Shown in pieces: positions 24,001 through 30,000 of a DNA stretch of 64,000 bases. This stretch comes from an uncultured Phycisphaerales bacterium (lineage in GTDB: Bacteria; Planctomycetota; Phycisphaerae; Tepidisphaerales; Tepidisphaeraceae), in NCBI GenBank assembly GCA_963844715.1, contig CAWJPJ010000006.1:928001-992000 (forward strand). The letters run 5' to 3'. Numbering within the stretch: position 1 is the first letter of the stretch; each line of letters starts with the position of its first letter. A program made the position numbers.

Positions 24001-27000
24001 GCTGGAAGGCGTGATCCCCATGTGCCCGGCCAGCTCGTGCAAATGCGTCGGCTCGATCGGATCGAGGTGATCCAACACGGAGGCCTGGTGCGAACTGATG
24101 AGCCGTTTGGAGGACTGGTCGCGCACATGGCGCACATGGCAGGCAAAGAAAATCCGTGGGTAGCAGTCGAGCACCGTCTGAACCGCCGCGCGAATCATGG
24201 GAAATAACCTATTTCAATTACTTTGATTTGTCAAATCAAATTAATATGGGCGTCGCATGGGAAGAGAATGGGGCATCTTTACACGGGTCCGGTCACAGGC
24301 GGTTCCGCCTGGGGGGGCCTGGCATCAGAAATGAACTTCGCAAGGCACCGAACGTTTTCAAAAACCAGCGTCTGGGGCGCGAAATGCAAAAATGCGATTT
24401 TTGGCTTGATTTTTTCATTTTTTGTGAAACAATTCATCCTCGTTCGACGTTATGTCGATGGAGAAACCTATGCGGCAGCGATATCAAATTAATATGTTCG
24501 GTACACCAGCCAAACGAGTCGGATCATCCGAACTCGATTGGGCGATACTATAACTCCCCCGCCGCGTCGGCCGGGAGTTCTTCCCGGCTGAAAGTAATCG
24601 TTACATTCAATTCCGGGAAGAATTTGGGCCTGTAGCTCAGCGGCCAGAGTGCTTGCTCGACACGCAAGAGGTCCGTGGTTCGATTCCACGCCGGCCCACT
24701 CTCGGTTCGCGCCGCATTCGGGCGCCTAGAGCGGCTTGCGGCTCCGCGTAGCGAGCCAGTTGGCCTCGGCTGCAACGGAGGCAAGGATGAACGACGAGGC
24801 GTATCAGAAAATCAGATACGTTGAGGAGCGAAGACGCGGCATCCGTTGCAGCCGTGGACAAATGGCCGCTAGGCGGAGCCGCAATCCGCTCTAAGCTCAA
24901 TCGGCGAGAGCGCCGCGCTTACATCGCGGAGGATGTTGGTTCGAGTCCAGCTTGGCGCATGGAGATGAAAAATGACGGGAATGCCCGGAAAATCAAGGTG
25001 TTTTCGCGTTGTTGACTGAACGGAAACGCCGCGAGAATCAAGGTTTTTTTGCGCTGTTAGCTCAGAGGCAGAGCACCCGGCCGATAACCGGGAGGCCGGA
25101 GAGTCGAGAACTCCACGGCGCACTGAATTGGCGACGCGTCGTTAGCAGGCAAATGGATTCTCGCTGAACCCCGCGCGCTCTTCTCTTCCCCCCTCTCCCG
25201 GTACTCCGGGGGAGGGCTGGGGTGGGGGCCGGCGCAATTCAGGCAAGATCCGCGGTAATCGGCAGTTCGCCTCGGGCACTGGTAGCTCAACTGGATCAGA
25301 GTTCCGGTCTACGAAACCGGAGGTTGAAGGTTCGACCCCTTCCCAGTGCGTTATGAACGAAAAATGGTTGTATATATATCTATTGCAATACAACCAGAAG
25401 TGTCCGCGCACTCGTAGCTTAAGGGTTAAGCCGCCGGTTCTTACCCGGCCTGATGCAGGTTCGAATCCTGCCGGGTGCATGAAAGGAGAATCGAAAAATG
25501 AGCCCGAGCAGAACCAAACGGTGCAGGTAAATCCGCACCGGTAGCTCAATGGAAACAGAGCAACCCTCTTCTAAAGGGTCGGCTGAGGGTTCGAGTCCCT
25601 CCCGGTGCATGTAGATTCCGCGCGCACCGGTAGCTCAACGGCAGAGCCGCCGCCTTTTAAGCGGAGTGATGCGGGTTCGAGTCCTGCTCGGTGCATGAAT
25701 ACACCACGGTTCAGTAGCCCAATCGGCAGAGGCGCCTGACTCAGAATCAGGATAGTGCAGGTTCGAATCCTGCCTGAACTATTTCGGCGAACGTTGCGGT
25801 AGCTCAATCGGATTCAGAGCGCGGCCCTCCGAAGGCCGAGGGTGAAGGTTCGATTCCTTCCCGCGACATCGAAAATTCGGGCCCGTCGTCTAACGGAAAG
25901 ACTCCTGGCCTGCACCCAGGAAATGAGGGTTCAATTCCCTCCGGCGTCCATGCGAGCGGCTTCGTCCGCTCCAGAAAGAAGGTGATCGATCATGAGCGAA
26001 AACTCATCGGAAAGTTCATCTAGCGGCTCCACATCCGGAGGGTTGGCTGAACGGCTAAGGCACCCGTCTCGAAAACGGGCATTCCCGATGACTGGGATTG
26101 GGGGTTCGAATCCCTCACCCTCCGCTGAAGTAAACGAGAACGTGCGCATGGAGGGTTGGCAGAGCGGACGATTGCGCCGCGGTGCTAACGCGGAAGGCGC
26201 CGACTAGGCGTCTCGAAGGTTCGAATCCTTCACCCTCCTTTGGAATGTGCGAGAGGGAACGGAGCTGGTCCGTTCCCGGAATGTTCTTTGACAATCCGGT
26301 GGCGTAATTCGCCGTCATAGCTCAGTCGGGATGAGCGTCCGGTCGTCAACCGGAAGGTCATGGGTTCGATTCCCATTGGCGGCGTTGGGCGCGAATTCCG
26401 CGCGCCTTCGAAGTGGATTTAGCTCAATCGGTAGAGCAGAGGTCTGAAAATCCTCCCGCCCTGGTTCAATTCCAGGAATCCACATGTCGGCCAAAGGCCG
26501 CGAATCGCGTCGGTAGTTCAGCGGGTGGAACACCGCTATGCCAAGGCGGAGGCCCGGGTTCGATCCCCGGCCGGCGCATTCTCGCAGTGGTAACTCAATC
26601 GGCAGAGTACCGGTCTTCCAAACCGGCAACGTGGGTTCGAATCCCGCTCACTGCACTAAAGGGACTTTCGACGGTTGAGGATCTTTTTCAAGCCGTGGTA
26701 GCTCAACGGGTAGAGCAGTCGTCTCGTAAACGACAGATTGCCGGTTCGATCCCGGCCCGCGGCTTTTCAAAAAAATCGGGTGCGTAGCTCAGCGGCAAGA
26801 GCAGGGGCCTCATAAGCCTCAGGTCGTTGGTTCAAATCCAACCGTTACCCAGTCAGGGATAGTTCAAACCGGTAGAACGCTCGGCTCTGAACCGGGATGT
26901 TGGAGGTTTCGGAGCAGCTTCATCTGTTTTGTAGCGTCTGCGTTGCGTCCAGATGGGCCGGGCGCTAGGCAGAGCGACGAGTTGGGTCAGGCACAGCGAC

Positions 27001-30000
27001 CCGGCGAGGAGCGATAACGACGCGAACGGCCCATCTGGACGCAACCCTCCGGGTCGCCGCCTTTTGCGGCCCATGCGTCGTTACTCCTCCTCGCCGTATC
27101 GTTTCACCTGATACGACTCGTCGTCGCGCCTAGCCTGTGCCGCAAAAGGCGGCGACGCAGACGCTACAAAACAGATGAAACTGCTCTGATCCTTCTCCCT
27201 GAATTGAGCCGTAGTTTAATCGGTAGCAATGCCGGTCTTTGAATCCGGAGATCGTGGTTCAAATCCACGCGGCTCAACTTCTTACCCATGTAGCTCAACC
27301 GGTAGAGCAGGCGGCTGTTAACCGCCGTGGTGGTGGTTCGAATCCATCCGTGGGTGTGGGCGGCGCTTCGCGCCACCAGAGCGTAGAAAGTAGAGGCCGA
27401 GAATTTTCTACTTTCCACTTTCCACGAACCACTTTCTCGCGCAGCGCCGCTCCTGTCGTCCAACGGTCAGGATACCGGGCCTTCAACCGGAGAATGTGGG
27501 TTCAATTCCCACCGGGAGTGCATGGAGAAATGATTTCAGCGTGTGGCGTAGCTTGGTAACGCACGTGCCTCGGGCGCACGGGATCGAAGGTTCGAATCCT
27601 TCCACGCTGACTTTCGCGTAGGTCGCATAATTGGCATTGCAGCGGGCCGTAACCCCGCCGACCCTTAGTGGTCCCTGGGGGTTCAAATCCCTCCCTACGC
27701 ATTGCCGCAAAGCGGCAATAGAGCGGTGGCGCAGTCGAACAGCCAACGAATGACTCGAGGAAATCGTCCCCGTCAGACGATCCCACCGCGGTCTACTGCT
27801 CCCCTGCTCTACTGTTCAGAATTTTCCGCGCCGGAAGTTCCAACGGCGGAACGCCCGCCTCCAAATCGGGAAGCGGCAGGTTCGATCCCTGCTCGGCGCG
27901 CTGGCAGTTTCGAGGATGTGGCCGATTGGACAGGCGCGGGTCTGCAAAGCCCGTCGATGCTGGTTCGAATCCAGTCATCCTCTTTTGATGGTGGCCGTAG
28001 CTCAAACGGTCAGAGCACCGGGCTGTGAACCCGGTCGGTGTGAGTTCGAGTCTCACCGGTCACCCTGTATTGCTGTTGATGGCTGGAAATTTGAGATCAA
28101 CTGCTCAGGTGACCATTTTGAAGCAGTTCGTCCAACACCCTTTCCAGCAACCTTATCTGTGCACGATCCACCGGCGCGGGTTGATCTTGATTGAACGGCT
28201 GGCTTTGTTCCGCCAGGAAACAAAAGCACTTCTCCGCGGTGTAGAAATCTAGGGCCTTCCGTTCAAGTTCGTTCAACCGCATGCCCGCGCACCAATAATC
28301 GATGTAGTCGGTCGGCAGCCCCTTAGCCATGAGCGCCATCCGCGTTAGTCCCAAGTGCGCGATGCGATCTCCGAAGCAGACCTCATCCACATCCACGATG
28401 CCGGAAAGTTCGCCGTGCTGGATCAGCACATTCTTGGTCGTGATGTCGTCCAGGAAAGACTGGGGGCGAGTCGCCTCAAAGTATTTTGAAAGCCGGCTCG
28501 CCGCATCCCGTAGAGGTTGGCGCGTTGCCCATCCACCACTCCGGCCTCTTCGATCCACCGTTCGCTGCGCTGAATAGACGCCTCCACGGCTTCGCCCCAA
28601 CTCTCATAAGGTGGCGCATGTCCCGGGTCGCTTTGGAATCCAAACCCCTTCCCTTCCGGCAGGCGTCCCAAGATCTCCTGCACCGCCGCCAGTCGGTAAG
28701 CCAGTTGCGCTTTCTCCTGCGCGGTCAATCGGGAATAAACCGCGCCCAAATCCTGCCCGGGTAAGCGCTCCAAAATCATGTATGGAAAGACCGTGCAATT
28801 CGGCGCGGCCTCCGCGTAAAGCAACTCGGGCAGCGGAATTCCCAGCGGTCGAAGAACGTTCGACCAGTGAATTCCGCCACGCAAATAGTGCCGATTCTCC
28901 GGCCGGGCAAGCCGCAACACCACCGCTCGCCCGTCGGCAAGAACCGCATCGTAAACATAGTGACATAAGCCGGTCGGAAATCGCTCAGCGGAAACCAACT
29001 CCGCTCCCAATGCCTCGTGCACGATAGCACGTAAGTCATCCGATGTTGGGCTTACCACCGCCATGACGCCAACATTTGCCCTATTCGCCTTCGAAATCAA
29101 CCTACTTGTCGAGCAACTTATAAATAGCATCAAAATTCCGCCCGGCCACGCTATACCCCCCGCCGAGCGGATCGCATCCGCCTGATCCGATAATTATTCG
29201 CCTTTTCGCGTCGCGGCGGCCGATAAGTCGGCTGATGAGCGACACTGCGTACCGAGATTCTCCGCCACCGGCCCAAGCCGATTCGCCCCGCGTTCTGGCA
29301 ATCCACCCGGTTCTGGAAGGGACCGCTTTCAATCCCCAGGCCGGGGGCAAGGACCTGGGCGCGGGGGAATGCACCGACGTTCTGCTCGAAATGGGCTGCC
29401 GCGTTAGCGTCTGGCCGCTTTCCTGGGGCGGACTGGCCGCCACGGAAAAGATCCTCTCGCGCCACCACGAAGTGATCTGGGGCAGCCACGGCCGCATCAA
29501 GCTCGTCCCAACCTGCGCCCCCGGCAGCCCGATGCGCGAGCCGAAGGACCTCGTCGACGATGTTCTGCGCGAACACCGCCCCCAGTTGCTGCACGTTCAT
29601 CAAACCCAAAACCCGCTCGTCGAACAGATCAAACAAAAGTCGCCCCAAACGCGAACCCTGCTCAGCAATCATTCCGGCGTCGTCAGCTCGCACATCGACA
29701 AATACGATCAGGTCGTCGTTCCCAGCCGATGGATGCGCGAACAGATCGTCGCTTCCCGGCCGGAGTTGGCCGATCGCGTGCGGACCATCCCCTATTTCCT
29801 GCAGCCCGAATATGAATGCGACCCGCCGCAGGAACCGGCGCGATCCGGAATCGTCTTCATCGGCCTGCTTACGGACCACCGCAAAGGCCTAGACACACTC
29901 CTCGATGCGTTGGCTCTGTTGAAAGCCGACGGGCAGACCTATCCCCTGACGGTCGTCGGCGAAGGGGCGGCCTTGGGCCAATTTCAGGAACAGTCACAGC

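What a model noticed while it worked through the whole genome (the two positions that open the first line are those of the whole stretch)
24626..28065. Laterally spread array of 26 tRNA genes that carries a type I (short-arm) tRNA-Leu
A 3.4-kb head-to-tail array of 26 Rfam-supported tRNA genes (two with weak stems) on the + strand supplies a tRNA for nearly every amino acid, duplicating the dispersed housekeeping set; it holds the assembly's only tRNA-Phe. Collinear homologous arrays occur patchily in other Tepidisphaeraceae genera but not in the two congeneric genomes, i.e. it is a laterally spread L-type array. Its tRNA-Leu(CAG) (C6:953708-953781, 74 nt) is a type I tRNA without the long variable arm, unlike the five dispersed type II tRNA-Leu genes; the short form (CAG, GAG, CAA) is kept in all 7 related arrays examined, while Ser and Tyr tRNAs of the same arrays keep their long arms. 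Its D-arm signature (GUAGCCCAA..GG [...]
Evidence so far: rna.tsv and Rfam scan: 26 tRNA hits of 41 bits or more in C6:952626-956065; ARAGORN 24. Phe(gaa) only in the array. DNA search of 141 family genomes: multi-tRNA collinear matches of 500-900 nt at 66-82% identity in G119, G125, G120, G015, G106, G038, G019, G011, G108, G107, G039, G035, G096, G022, G037, G065, G058; same gene order in loci L014-L020. Congeners G137 (95% complete) and G138 (90%) give only single-tRNA or MITE matches. In 8 of 8 arrays every Leu-anticodon tRNA (17 genes) is 74-77 nt with a 4-5-nt variable region and A73; RNAalifold on the 17: acceptor, D and T helices kept, 8 of 16 pairs with double compensatory changes. 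Scan of 185,579 species genomes for the D-arm signature: 1 [...]
(Added by a program. Inside this text positions count along the whole contig: contig position 928,001 is position 1 of the stretch shown here. "Call 12" and the like, gene names such as g00115 and contig names such as C1 are that model's own, and its searches are not shown. The text may have been shortened before it was handed on; [...] marks where a part breaks off. The agent that wrote the report below was given it as the finding of a first reader that could run no searches.)

Follow-up and report, generated by a model that had tools for sequence, protein, structure and literature searches.

The report
Spare tRNA array with armless tRNA-Leu
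A soil planctomycete carries a real cluster of 26 spare tRNA genes, one of them a leucine tRNA without the usual long extra arm, but both the cluster type and the armless leucine tRNA are known and widespread in such arrays and in phages.

Summary
Rfam finds 26 tRNA genes and ARAGORN 24, head to tail at 24626-28065. 25 of the 26 anticodons are also in the dispersed set. Phe(GAA) is found only in the array. Leu(CAG) at 25708-25781 is 74 nt with a 5-nt variable region and A73.

The interpretation needs correcting in two places.

1. The armless tRNA-Leu is not special to this array. Its D-arm motif marks a large class of short Leu-anticodon tRNAs: 193 of the 199 motif-bearing tRNAs in 200 scanned loci. 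They occur as single genes in Actinomycetota, in long arrays of other phyla and in phage tRNA clusters. The model Anabaena PCC 7120 array has four short Leu tRNAs, so the combination is not new. This scan has also noted it before on other DNA.

2. Lateral spread is not shown. Collinear arrays are confined to this family, where 49 of 141 genomes carry the motif. Array similarity tracks dnaE similarity (rho 0.82, n=19). Old acquisition followed by descent, relocation and loss fits as well as transfer.

The local copy is eroding. Two MITEs split Val(UAC) and Gln(CUG), and Leu(GAG) and Leu(CAA) are gone. The short Leu keeps the E. coli-type LeuRS determinants, and the genome has one leuS. Expression and charging are untested.

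The parts
24626..24699 (+). tRNA-Val(GAC), first gene of the array; has C33
24724..24896 (.). MITE-A, a palindromic 173-nt element inserted in the 5' part of tRNA-Val(UAC); about 5 copies in the genome
   Evidence: related copies in G115 and G123
24888..24959 (+). tRNA-Val(UAC) remnant; its 5' acceptor strand is supplied by the MITE end; Rfam 48.4 bits, missed by ARAGORN
25051..25122 (+). tRNA-Ile(GAU); unusual T loop shared with relatives; local A53-A61 mismatch; Rfam only
25276..25695 (+). tRNA-Arg(ACG), Lys(CUU), Arg(UCU), Lys(UUU)
25708..25781 (+). type I (armless) tRNA-Leu(CAG): 74 nt, 3-bp D stem GCC/GGC, D loop CAAUCGGCAGA, 5-nt variable region ending in U48, A37, A73, G1-U72
25793..25868 (+). 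tRNA-Arg(CCG)
25879..25949 (+). UGC-anticodon tRNA called Ala; no G3:U70 (G3-G70, C4-C69, G2-U71), C33, C73; conserved in the relatives' arrays
25950..26036 (+). 87-nt spacer at the place where related arrays carry type I Leu(GAG) and Leu(CAA); both are missing here
26037..26850 (+). tRNA-Ser(CGA), Ser(GCU) (both long-armed), Asp(GUC), Phe(GAA) (the only Phe in the assembly), Gly(GCC), Gly(UCC), Thr(CGU), Met(CAU)
26853..26908 (+). 5' part (56 nt) of tRNA-Gln(CUG), cut in its T loop
   Evidence: alignment by eye with 16 intact orthologues
26909..27187 (.). MITE-B, a palindromic element of about 280 nt; about 5 copies in the genome at 90-93%; the only part of the region that matches the congeners
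27188..27204 (+). 3' part of the split tRNA-Gln(CUG)
27205..28065 (+). tRNA-Gln(UUG), Asn(GUU), Glu(UUC) (G-G mismatch in the anticodon stem), Pro(CGG), Tyr(GUA) (long arm), Trp(CCA), Cys(GCA), His(GUG)

Best explanation
This is a member of a Tepidisphaeraceae-specific lineage of long supernumerary tRNA arrays (L-array or 'tRNA array unit'). It is a second, sequence-diverged tRNA set. By analogy with the Anabaena array, it is probably transcribed as one precursor, cut by RNase P and RNase Z, and given CCA after transcription.

Its Leu(CAG) belongs to a widespread class of armless (type I) leucine tRNAs. That class looks derived from ordinary type II tRNA-Leu by loss of the variable arm. It is typical of phage tRNA clusters and L-arrays, and it also serves as a single chromosomal isoacceptor in many Actinomycetota.

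The tRNA keeps what E. coli-type LeuRS reads (A73, A14, A15-U48, G18G19, the Leu-type D arm). LeuRS does not read the anticodon or the long arm. The genome's single LeuRS most likely leucylates it, so it reads CUG as leucine and there is no recoding.

The array lineage is old in the family. It has mostly descended with its hosts, with relocations and many losses. The copy in this genome is partly decayed.

Shown: the anatomy, family membership, distribution, co-divergence and erosion. Inferred: transcription, processing, charging and the history.
For: Array: 26 co-oriented genes in 3.44 kb, and 25 of 26 anticodons duplicated elsewhere in the genome.

Lineage:
- 20 related arrays fetched from 17 genera have the same gene order.
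- The motif is present in 49 of 141 family genomes and 34 of 76 genera; a reversed-pattern control gave 2 hits.
- In a class-wide sample, array DNA matched 6 of 63 other family genomes and 0 of 337 genomes of 23 other families.

Co-divergence: array tRNA identity to G000 (0.79-0.89) rises with dnaE identity (68-76%), Spearman 0.82, n=19.

The 45 short Leu genes in 21 arrays:
- All 20 stem pairs are formed in 43-45 of 45 genes.
- 13 of 20 pairs show changes on both sides.
- 44 of 45 have A73.
- The D stem is invariant in 44 of 45.
- All three anticodons (CAG, GAG, CAA) are leucine anticodons from two codon boxes. That is expected only if the shared body specifies leucine.

D arm: it has the architecture of the host's type II Leu (GUGGCGGAAUUGGCAGACGC against GUAGCCCAAUCGGCAGAGGC).

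Identity rules: in E. coli, A73, A15-U48, G18G19 and A20a matter, and variants without the long arm and the anticodon arm stay active (review passages, PMC9976931).

Class breadth: 193 of 199 motif-bearing tRNAs in 200 loci are short Leu-anticodon tRNAs and none is long.

Precedents:
- In S. coelicolor a single LeuRS charges the type I Leu(CAA) (PMC6614811).
- The PCC 7120 trn operon has 4 short Leu tRNAs, and 23 of its 26 tRNAs are aminoacylated in vivo (PMC8421152 passage). At least one short Leu is therefore charged there.

LeuRS: G000 has one leuS. All 10 relatives checked have one match each. In the 9 aligned (G125 dropped), the leucine-specific domain follows phylogeny, not array presence.

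Erosion.
Against: No expression evidence exists: no RNA run holds the stretch. The sigma-70 consensus scan found no promoter in 24100-28400.

Fan et al. report that E. coli LeuRS and one Streptomyces LeuRS cannot charge the S. coelicolor type I tRNA. Charging by any given bacterial LeuRS is therefore not assured.

The local Leu(CAG) is the only one of 45 with G1-U72. It has A37 where the housekeeping Leu(CAG) has G37.

The acid-gel result in Anabaena shows charging but not which amino acid. I could not see which 3 genes failed, because the figure is not held.

Against mainly vertical descent:
- None of the 14 flank proteins of G000 recurs in a syntenic way beside the 20 related arrays.
- Arrays are absent from many members of array-bearing genera, for example present in 3 of 13 genomes of g72.
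- Related genomes are not independent, so the correlation overstates its support.
Confidence: 0.7

Rival explanations
1. The array is a mobile island that spread recently by horizontal transfer among Tepidisphaeraceae genera.
For: The distribution is patchy: 49 of 141 genomes, and none in the two congeners. There is no flank synteny with the 20 related arrays. An IS4/5 transposase lies 3.6 kb upstream. L-arrays are held to move by HGT (PMC8421152 and PMC4758250 passages). Some longer spacers are 73-81% identical to those of genus g72.
Against: Array similarity tracks dnaE similarity (rho 0.82, n=19). Identity of array tRNAs to g72 (88-89%) and of spacers is no higher than expected from dnaE at 74-77%. 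No integrase, relaxase or phage gene lies beside the array. GC content does not differ from the flanks. No collinear array was found outside the family among 337 class genomes.
Confidence: 0.3
2. The short Leu(CAG) is not a working leucine tRNA in this host. It is either a decaying or uncharged passenger, or it is charged with another amino acid.
For: The local array is eroding: two MITE-split genes, two Leu genes lost, mismatches in Glu and Ile. This copy has a unique G1-U72. E. coli LeuRS and S. purpurogeneiscleroticus LeuRS do not charge a type I tRNA-Leu. It has A37 in place of the G37 that housekeeping CUN readers carry.
Against: Three paralogues with three different leucine anticodons share one conserved body and A73 across 21 arrays, with compensatory changes. 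All E. coli-type LeuRS determinants are kept. The same class serves as a single chromosomal isoacceptor in many Actinomycetota. At least one short Leu is charged in Anabaena.
Confidence: 0.2
3. The array has become indispensable here because it supplies the cell's only tRNA-Phe.
For: No other tRNA-Phe is found by ARAGORN, by Rfam, or by a search with the family's conserved housekeeping tRNA-Phe. All 20 other array genomes fetched keep a housekeeping copy away from the array, so G000 stands out. The dispersed set lacks no other amino acid. The assembly is 8 contigs and 4.55 Mb. Its 85% completeness is probably depressed by 1-nt indel errors: 4 were seen in 5 kb. The array Phe has intact stems.
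Against: 12 of 140 other family assemblies also lack a detectable housekeeping tRNA-Phe, and 8 of those have no motif. One missing tRNA is what a small assembly gap gives. 3'-half copies of tRNA-Phe in relatives mark it as an integration site. Such regions assemble badly. The rest of the array is decaying.
Confidence: 0.25

Closest known systems
L-arrays / tRNA array units, especially the trn operon on plasmid delta of Nostoc/Anabaena sp. PCC 7120 (Santamaria-Gomez et al. 2021, PMC8421152; Tran et al. 2016, PMC4758250)
   Same: About 26 co-oriented tRNA genes in a few kb. They are redundant with the housekeeping set and patchy among relatives. They contain armless Leu tRNAs: 4 in PCC 7120, one with the exact D-arm motif.
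   Different: The gene order differs and there is no nucleotide-level relation. This array is chromosomal. No homing endonuclease lies beside it (PCC 7120 has an HNH gene). This lineage is confined to one planctomycete family and co-diverges with it. Induction by translational stress is untested here.
Type I tRNA-Leu(CAA) of Streptomyces coelicolor (Fan et al. 2019, PMC6614811)
   Same: A short variable loop of 5 nt and A73. It coexists with type II tRNA-Leu and a single LeuRS. Actinomycetota single genes carry the same D-arm motif.
   Different: There it is an essential housekeeping isoacceptor with no type II twin. Here it is a supernumerary copy beside a type II Leu(CAG). The role of the LeuRS leucine-specific domain is untested here.
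Phage tRNA clusters with short Leu tRNAs
   Same: The same D-arm motif, a short variable region and leucine anticodons, set within clusters of up to 28 tRNAs.
   Different: No viral contig with this array's gene order was found. The 5 contigs that hold the Ala-type motif have other orders and long Leu tRNAs. No phage genes flank the array here.
Rsr (Ro60) with YrlA-type Y RNA loci (Chen et al. 2014, PMC4201824)
   Same: In 8 of 20 related arrays the array is followed by tandem tRNA-like repeats and a TROVE/vWA protein. Y RNAs are known to lie beside Ro60 orthologues in more than 250 bacteria and phages.
   Different: This module is absent from the window and from G000. Rfam reported no Y RNA family at gathering score. 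The link to a tRNA array is my observation and is untested.

Membership tests
tRNA array unit (Tran et al. 2016) | At least 20 tRNA genes at 2 or more per kb (definition read in the abstract listing) | tested here: met
   26 genes in 3,440 nt, or 7.6 per kb
L-array (Santamaria-Gomez et al. 2021) | Long run of tRNA genes in one orientation, not periodic | tested here: met
   All 26 are on the + strand with no repeated order
L-array | Supernumerary: adds isodecoders rather than new anticodons | tested here: met
   25 of 26 anticodons are also in the dispersed set; Phe(GAA) is the exception
L-array | Sprinkled distribution due to horizontal transfer | tested here: inconclusive
   The distribution is patchy (49 of 141) and flanks are not shared. 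However, array similarity tracks dnaE (rho 0.82, n=19) and the lineage is confined to one family.
L-array | Silent or weakly expressed, inducible operon | not testable with these tools
   No RNA run holds the stretch
Type I (armless) tRNA-Leu class | Variable region of 4-6 nt in place of a stem-loop arm | tested here: met
   5 nt here; 5-6 nt in 45 of 45 related genes
Type I (armless) tRNA-Leu class | Leucine anticodon with discriminator A73 | tested here: met
   CAG and A73 here; A73 in 44 of 45
Type I (armless) tRNA-Leu class | Leu-type D arm: 3-bp stem, A14 A15, G18G19, motif GUAGCCCAA..GGNAGAGGC | tested here: met
   Exact motif in the window. 193 of 199 motif tRNAs elsewhere are short Leu tRNAs.
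Type I (armless) tRNA-Leu class | Leucylated by LeuRS | not testable with these tools
   Shown only for S. coelicolor. Charging of at least one short Leu in Anabaena is inferred.

The most novel reading that the evidence does not exclude
The Tepidisphaeraceae array is an anciently captured, phage-derived 'shadow' tRNA set kept by selection because its members depart from the housekeeping tRNAs at the sites that tRNA-targeting toxins and nucleases read. The departures are the armless Leu, C33 in place of the near-universal U33 in many members, swapped position 37 in the Leu tRNAs, and an Ala-anticodon tRNA without G3:U70. The set would serve as a back-up during translational attack. It was originally coupled to an Rsr/Y-RNA RNA-surveillance module. 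In this genome it has also taken over the supply of tRNA-Phe.
Probability: 0.15. Interest if true: 0.7.

Novelty: new member of a known kind. Interest (0 to 1): 0.3.

Why it matters
The finding adds a planctomycete family to the hosts of long tRNA arrays. Within that family the array lineage has stayed collinear across 17 or more genera, which argues that such arrays can be kept for long periods rather than being short-lived passengers.

It also adds to the evidence that armless leucine tRNAs are a normal, under-described part of phage and array tRNA sets. This matters for tRNA annotation, because tools may call them pseudogenes or mis-type them. It also matters for the question of which bacterial LeuRS enzymes accept type I substrates.

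It does not indicate recoding or a new kind of system.

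Tried and rejected
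- **Expression.** No RNA holder was listed for 24300-28300. The 4 DNA runs come from one soil study. Their contigs were laid only to check the assembly.
- **Promoter and terminator scan of 24100-28400.** It found 0 sigma-70-like promoters (shuffles gave 1.6) and 6 terminator-like sites (shuffles gave 4.5), so it was uninformative.
- **Base composition.** The array has GC 0.55-0.59 and the flanks 0.56-0.61, so there is no island signal.
- **Flank synteny.** tblastn of 14 flank proteins against the 20 related loci gave 2 weak, non-syntenic hits.
- **Test of real loss of the housekeeping tRNA-Phe.** BLAST with the array Phe was not decisive. A pattern scan found the family's housekeeping Phe in G137, G138 and G119 but not in G000. 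The flanks of that gene in G137, G125, G120, G124 and G010 are not syntenic with G000, so neither loss nor an assembly gap could be shown.
- **Search for a viral source.** The 18-nt motif of the Ala-type tRNA hit 5 IMG/VR contigs. Three carry tRNA clusters, but in another order and with long Leu tRNAs.
- **Second or specialised LeuRS.** None was found. G125 was dropped from the alignment because its match was 51% identical with 3 in-frame TGA.
- **Nearest non-Leu relative of the short Leu.** Global alignments to all genome tRNAs gave only generic similarity (best Lys-CUU, 53 of 74), so no anticodon-shift origin is supported.
- **The 555-aa neighbour in relatives.** There were no Pfam, NCBIfam or PHROGs hits. 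A 6-sequence profile found nothing in the PDB sequences at E 0.01 or below. Only single-sequence phmmer (E 0.006) and Foldseek on a weak model (pLDDT 54) point to Ro60. Rfam found only tRNA in four related loci and no Y RNA family.
- **Literature.** Searches found no paper, apart from Fan et al. 2019, that discusses armless tRNA-Leu in bacterial arrays or phages. The texts of PMC8421152, PMC4758250 and PMC5966550 do not mention it.

Full report
**Observation**

Rfam places 26 tRNA genes (41.5-67.7 bits) on the + strand between 24626 and 28065, and ARAGORN finds 24 of them. The two that only Rfam finds are a Val(UAC)-like gene at 24888-24959 and Ile(GAU) at 25051-25122. No gene encodes CCA.

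The assembly has 8 contigs, 4.55 Mb and 85% estimated completeness. It holds 74 tRNAs by ARAGORN and 75 by Rfam. The dispersed set covers every amino acid except Phe. It includes five type II tRNA-Leu of 82-86 nt. 25 of the 26 array anticodons recur in it.

The array Leu(CAG), 25708-25781, is 74 nt. It has a 7-bp acceptor stem with G1-U72 and a 3-bp D stem GCC/GGC around an 11-nt loop. The anticodon loop is CUCAGAA, the variable region is 5 nt and the discriminator is A73. Short-read contigs from four soil metagenome DNA runs of one study cover the array in pieces. Two of those pieces span the Leu gene without a difference. The same call shows four 1-nt indel differences in 5 kb. The frameshifted dnaE, APH and leuS frames are therefore probably assembly errors. 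By inference, the 85% completeness is an underestimate.

**Related arrays**

A DNA search of the 141 family genomes gave multi-tRNA matches in many genera. The two congeners matched only the MITE part. I fetched 20 of these loci. ARAGORN shows one shared gene order: Val, Ile, Arg, Lys, Arg, Lys, Leu-CAG, Arg, Ala, Leu-GAG, Leu-CAA, Ser, Ser, Asp, Phe, Gly, Gly, Thr, Met, Gln, Gln, Asn, Glu, Pro, Tyr, Trp, Cys, His.

All 44 Leu-anticodon tRNAs in these loci are 73-77 nt, and 18 of the 20 loci hold at least one. Ser and Tyr stay long.

I parsed the 45 genes, the window's included, into cloverleaf parts:
- Each of the 20 stem pairs is formed in 43-45 of 45 genes.
- 13 of 20 pairs change on both sides.
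- A73 is present in 44 of 45.
- The D stem is invariant in 44 of 45.
- The variable region is 5-6 nt and ends in U.

Against this template the window's array has lost Leu(GAG) and Leu(CAA); an 87-nt spacer remains at 25950-26036. Its Gln(CUG) is split in the T loop by a roughly 280-nt palindromic MITE. Its Val(UAC) is interrupted near the 5' end by a 173-nt MITE. Glu(UUC) has a G-G mismatch in the anticodon stem. Ile(GAU) has an A-A mismatch in the T stem. Its Leu(CAG) is the only one of the 45 with G1-U72. The local copy is therefore eroding.

**What the short Leu is**

Three points argue that the body specifies leucine.

1. Three paralogues share one D arm and A73 yet carry CAG, GAG and CAA. 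These anticodons come from two codon boxes and have only leucine in common.
2. The D arm has the architecture of the host's own type II tRNA-Leu: a 3-bp stem, positions 13 and 22 unpaired, and A14 A15 Y Y G18 G19 C A G A.
3. The elements that E. coli LeuRS needs are all present: A73, A15-U48, G18G19 and A20a. The long arm and the anticodon arm are dispensable there (passages of the review PMC9976931; Introduction of PMC6614811).

Global alignment to every other tRNA of the genome gave no closer non-Leu relative.

**The class is widespread**

I scanned for the D-arm motif GTAGCCCAA-N(1-6)-GGNAGAGGC. ARAGORN ran on the 200 loci held and found 199 motif-bearing tRNAs. Of these, 193 are short Leu-anticodon tRNAs (UAA 89, CAA 42, UAG 38, GAG 12, CAG 8, AAG 4). 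Two are called Phe(AAA) in an ambiguous loop register, and four were left unassigned. None is long.

In genomes most are single genes of Actinomycetota, often with CCA encoded. This fits the type I Leu(CAA) of S. coelicolor, which its single LeuRS charges (PMC6614811: abstract, Introduction, Discussion, sections 17 and 22). Others lie in arrays of a Nostoc MAG (25 tRNAs in 6 kb), Elusimicrobia (27), Acidobacteriota (21), Asanoa (17), Chitinophaga (11), Actinokineospora (10), a Planctomycetaceae MAG (9) and Myxococcus (8). Of the 71 viral loci with a motif tRNA, 44 hold five or more tRNAs and some hold up to 28.

The Nostoc array led to plasmid delta of Nostoc/Anabaena PCC 7120. Its trn operon carries Leu(UAA), Leu(GAG), Leu(UAG) and Leu(CAA) of 75-78 nt. 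Leu(CAA) has the exact motif. Leu(GAG) has a type II-style D arm on a short body, which fits an origin by loss of the arm.

A passage of PMC8421152 states that 23 of the 26 operon tRNAs are detected and aminoacylated in vivo. At least one short Leu is therefore charged in a cyanobacterium. The amino acid was not determined, and I could not see the figure. The main texts of PMC8421152, PMC4758250 and PMC5966550 do not mention armless Leu. My literature searches found only Fan et al. 2019.

Earlier notes of this scan reached the same reading on other DNA. I arrived at it before reading them.

**LeuRS**

G000 has one leuS, read in two frames. Each of 10 relatives, 4 with arrays and 6 without, has one match. 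I aligned the C-terminal 371 residues of 9 of them with G000. G125 was dropped because its match was 51% identical with 3 in-frame TGA. The leucine-specific domain before KMSKS groups by relatedness: G000 with G137 and G138, and G119 with G117. It does not group by array presence.

No special enzyme accompanies the arrays. As a caution, Fan et al. found that E. coli LeuRS and one Streptomyces LeuRS do not charge the S. coelicolor type I tRNA.

**History**

The motif occurs in 49 of 141 family genomes, 34 of 76 genera and 22 of 72 high-quality genomes. A reversed-pattern control gave 2 hits. In a class-wide sample of 401 genomes, array DNA matched only this family: 6 of 63 others, and 0 of 337 in 23 other families.

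Flanks are not shared with G000, and GC content is unremarkable. Array tRNA identity to G000 nevertheless rises with dnaE identity (Spearman 0.82, n=19 of the 20 arrays; G106 had no listed dnaE row). The 'congeners' are no closer to G000 in dnaE (76-80%) than genus g72 (74-76%). An old acquisition followed by descent, relocation and repeated loss therefore fits at least as well as recent lateral spread. Related genomes are not independent, so this is an indication and not a test.

The family tallies include the unpublished genome G062. It had no motif. No other claim rests on it.

**tRNA-Phe**

The family's housekeeping tRNA-Phe is highly conserved. It is found in 128 of 140 other genomes, including all 20 array genomes fetched, always away from the array. 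It is not found in G000. However, 12 other assemblies also lack it, 8 of them without the motif. Synteny could not settle the matter.

**Context seen in relatives**

In 8 of the 20 loci, from 6 genera, the array is followed on the same strand by five elements:
- a small conserved ORF;
- three to five tandem tRNA-like repeats;
- a 555-aa protein;
- a 285-aa protein of no known family;
- a ThiF-family protein.

The 555-aa protein matches a TROVE-domain chain weakly by sequence (E 0.006). On a low-confidence model (pLDDT 54) its ten best Foldseek hits are all Ro60, Rsr or TROVE structures (E 2e-7 to 1e-5, TM about 0.25). Y RNAs with tRNA-like domains beside Ro60 orthologues are known from more than 250 bacteria and phages (PMC4201824 passages). 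None of these genes is in G000.

**Verdict**

This is a real L-type array with a real armless tRNA-Leu. Both are of known kinds, and their combination is the rule, not a novelty. The claim of lateral spread is not established. The local copy is decaying. Expression and charging remain untested.

Noticed in passing
window 24724-24896 and 26909-27187; 25189-25228: Two low-copy palindromic MITEs, each with about 5 copies in the genome at 84-95% identity, have inserted into tRNA genes of the array. A 40-45-nt REP-like palindrome in the Ile-Arg spacer has 8 or more partial copies and very high short-read depth.
   Followed up: partly
window 24626-28065 and loci L031-L050: C33 replaces the near-universal U33 in 4 of 23 ARAGORN-called array tRNAs here (Val-GAC, Ala-UGC, Asp, Tyr), against 0 of 50 dispersed tRNAs. 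It is also common in the relatives' arrays: Leu-GAG 10 of 14, Ala 9 of 17, Ile 8 of 14, Glu-UUC 7 of 11, Tyr 6 of 19.
   Followed up: partly
window 25879-25949: The UGC-anticodon tRNA called Ala lacks the G3:U70 pair that AlaRS reads. It has G3-G70, C4-C69, G2-U71 and C73, and a Glu-like D arm. The odd acceptor stem is conserved in the relatives' arrays, with a compensated 5-68 pair in G096. Its identity is open.
   Followed up: partly
window 25708-25781; loci L031-L049: Position 37 is swapped relative to the housekeeping Leu tRNAs. Array Leu(CAG) has A37 (17 of 17 relatives) where the housekeeping gene has G37. Array Leu(CAA) has G37 (13 of 13) where the housekeeping gene has A37.
   Followed up: no
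L033:10081-15115, L039, L041, L045, L047, L048 (relatives, not the window): A module conserved downstream of the array in 6 genera: a small ORF ending ..RPEAVFG, 3-5 tandem tRNA-like (Y-RNA-like) repeats, a Ro60/Rsr-like TROVE+vWA protein, a 285-aa unknown protein and a ThiF-family E1-like protein. One repeat scores as a 120-nt tRNA in Rfam (L048:7264-7383, 33 bits).
   Followed up: partly
window 13753-17536, 28097-29133; G000:C6:1037940-1040793: dnaE, an APH-family kinase gene and leuS each read in two frames. Short-read contigs show 1-nt indels relative to the assembly at 24381, 26579, 28035 and 28519. These are likely long-read indel errors that lower the completeness estimate.
   Followed up: partly
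G138:C225, G119:C23:63395, G116, G112 and others: Extra copies of only the 3' half of the housekeeping tRNA-Phe occur in several family genomes. They look like attachment-site duplications left by integrative elements that target tRNA-Phe.
   Followed up: no
G000:C6:922093-922180 (6 kb before the window): ARAGORN calls an 88-nt tRNA-Asp(GUC), and Rfam scores it at 51 bits. That is unusually long for tRNA-Asp.
   Followed up: no
window 20196-21035: An IS4/5-family transposase gene (DUF4096 plus DDE) lies 3.6 kb upstream of the array. A MarR-family regulator gene (23725-24198, minus strand) is the nearest upstream gene.
   Followed up: no
G011:C9:11,4xx-12,4xx and C9:408,0xx-409,5xx: One family genome (8.6 Mb) carries two arrays with short Leu tRNAs on the same contig.
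   Followed up: no
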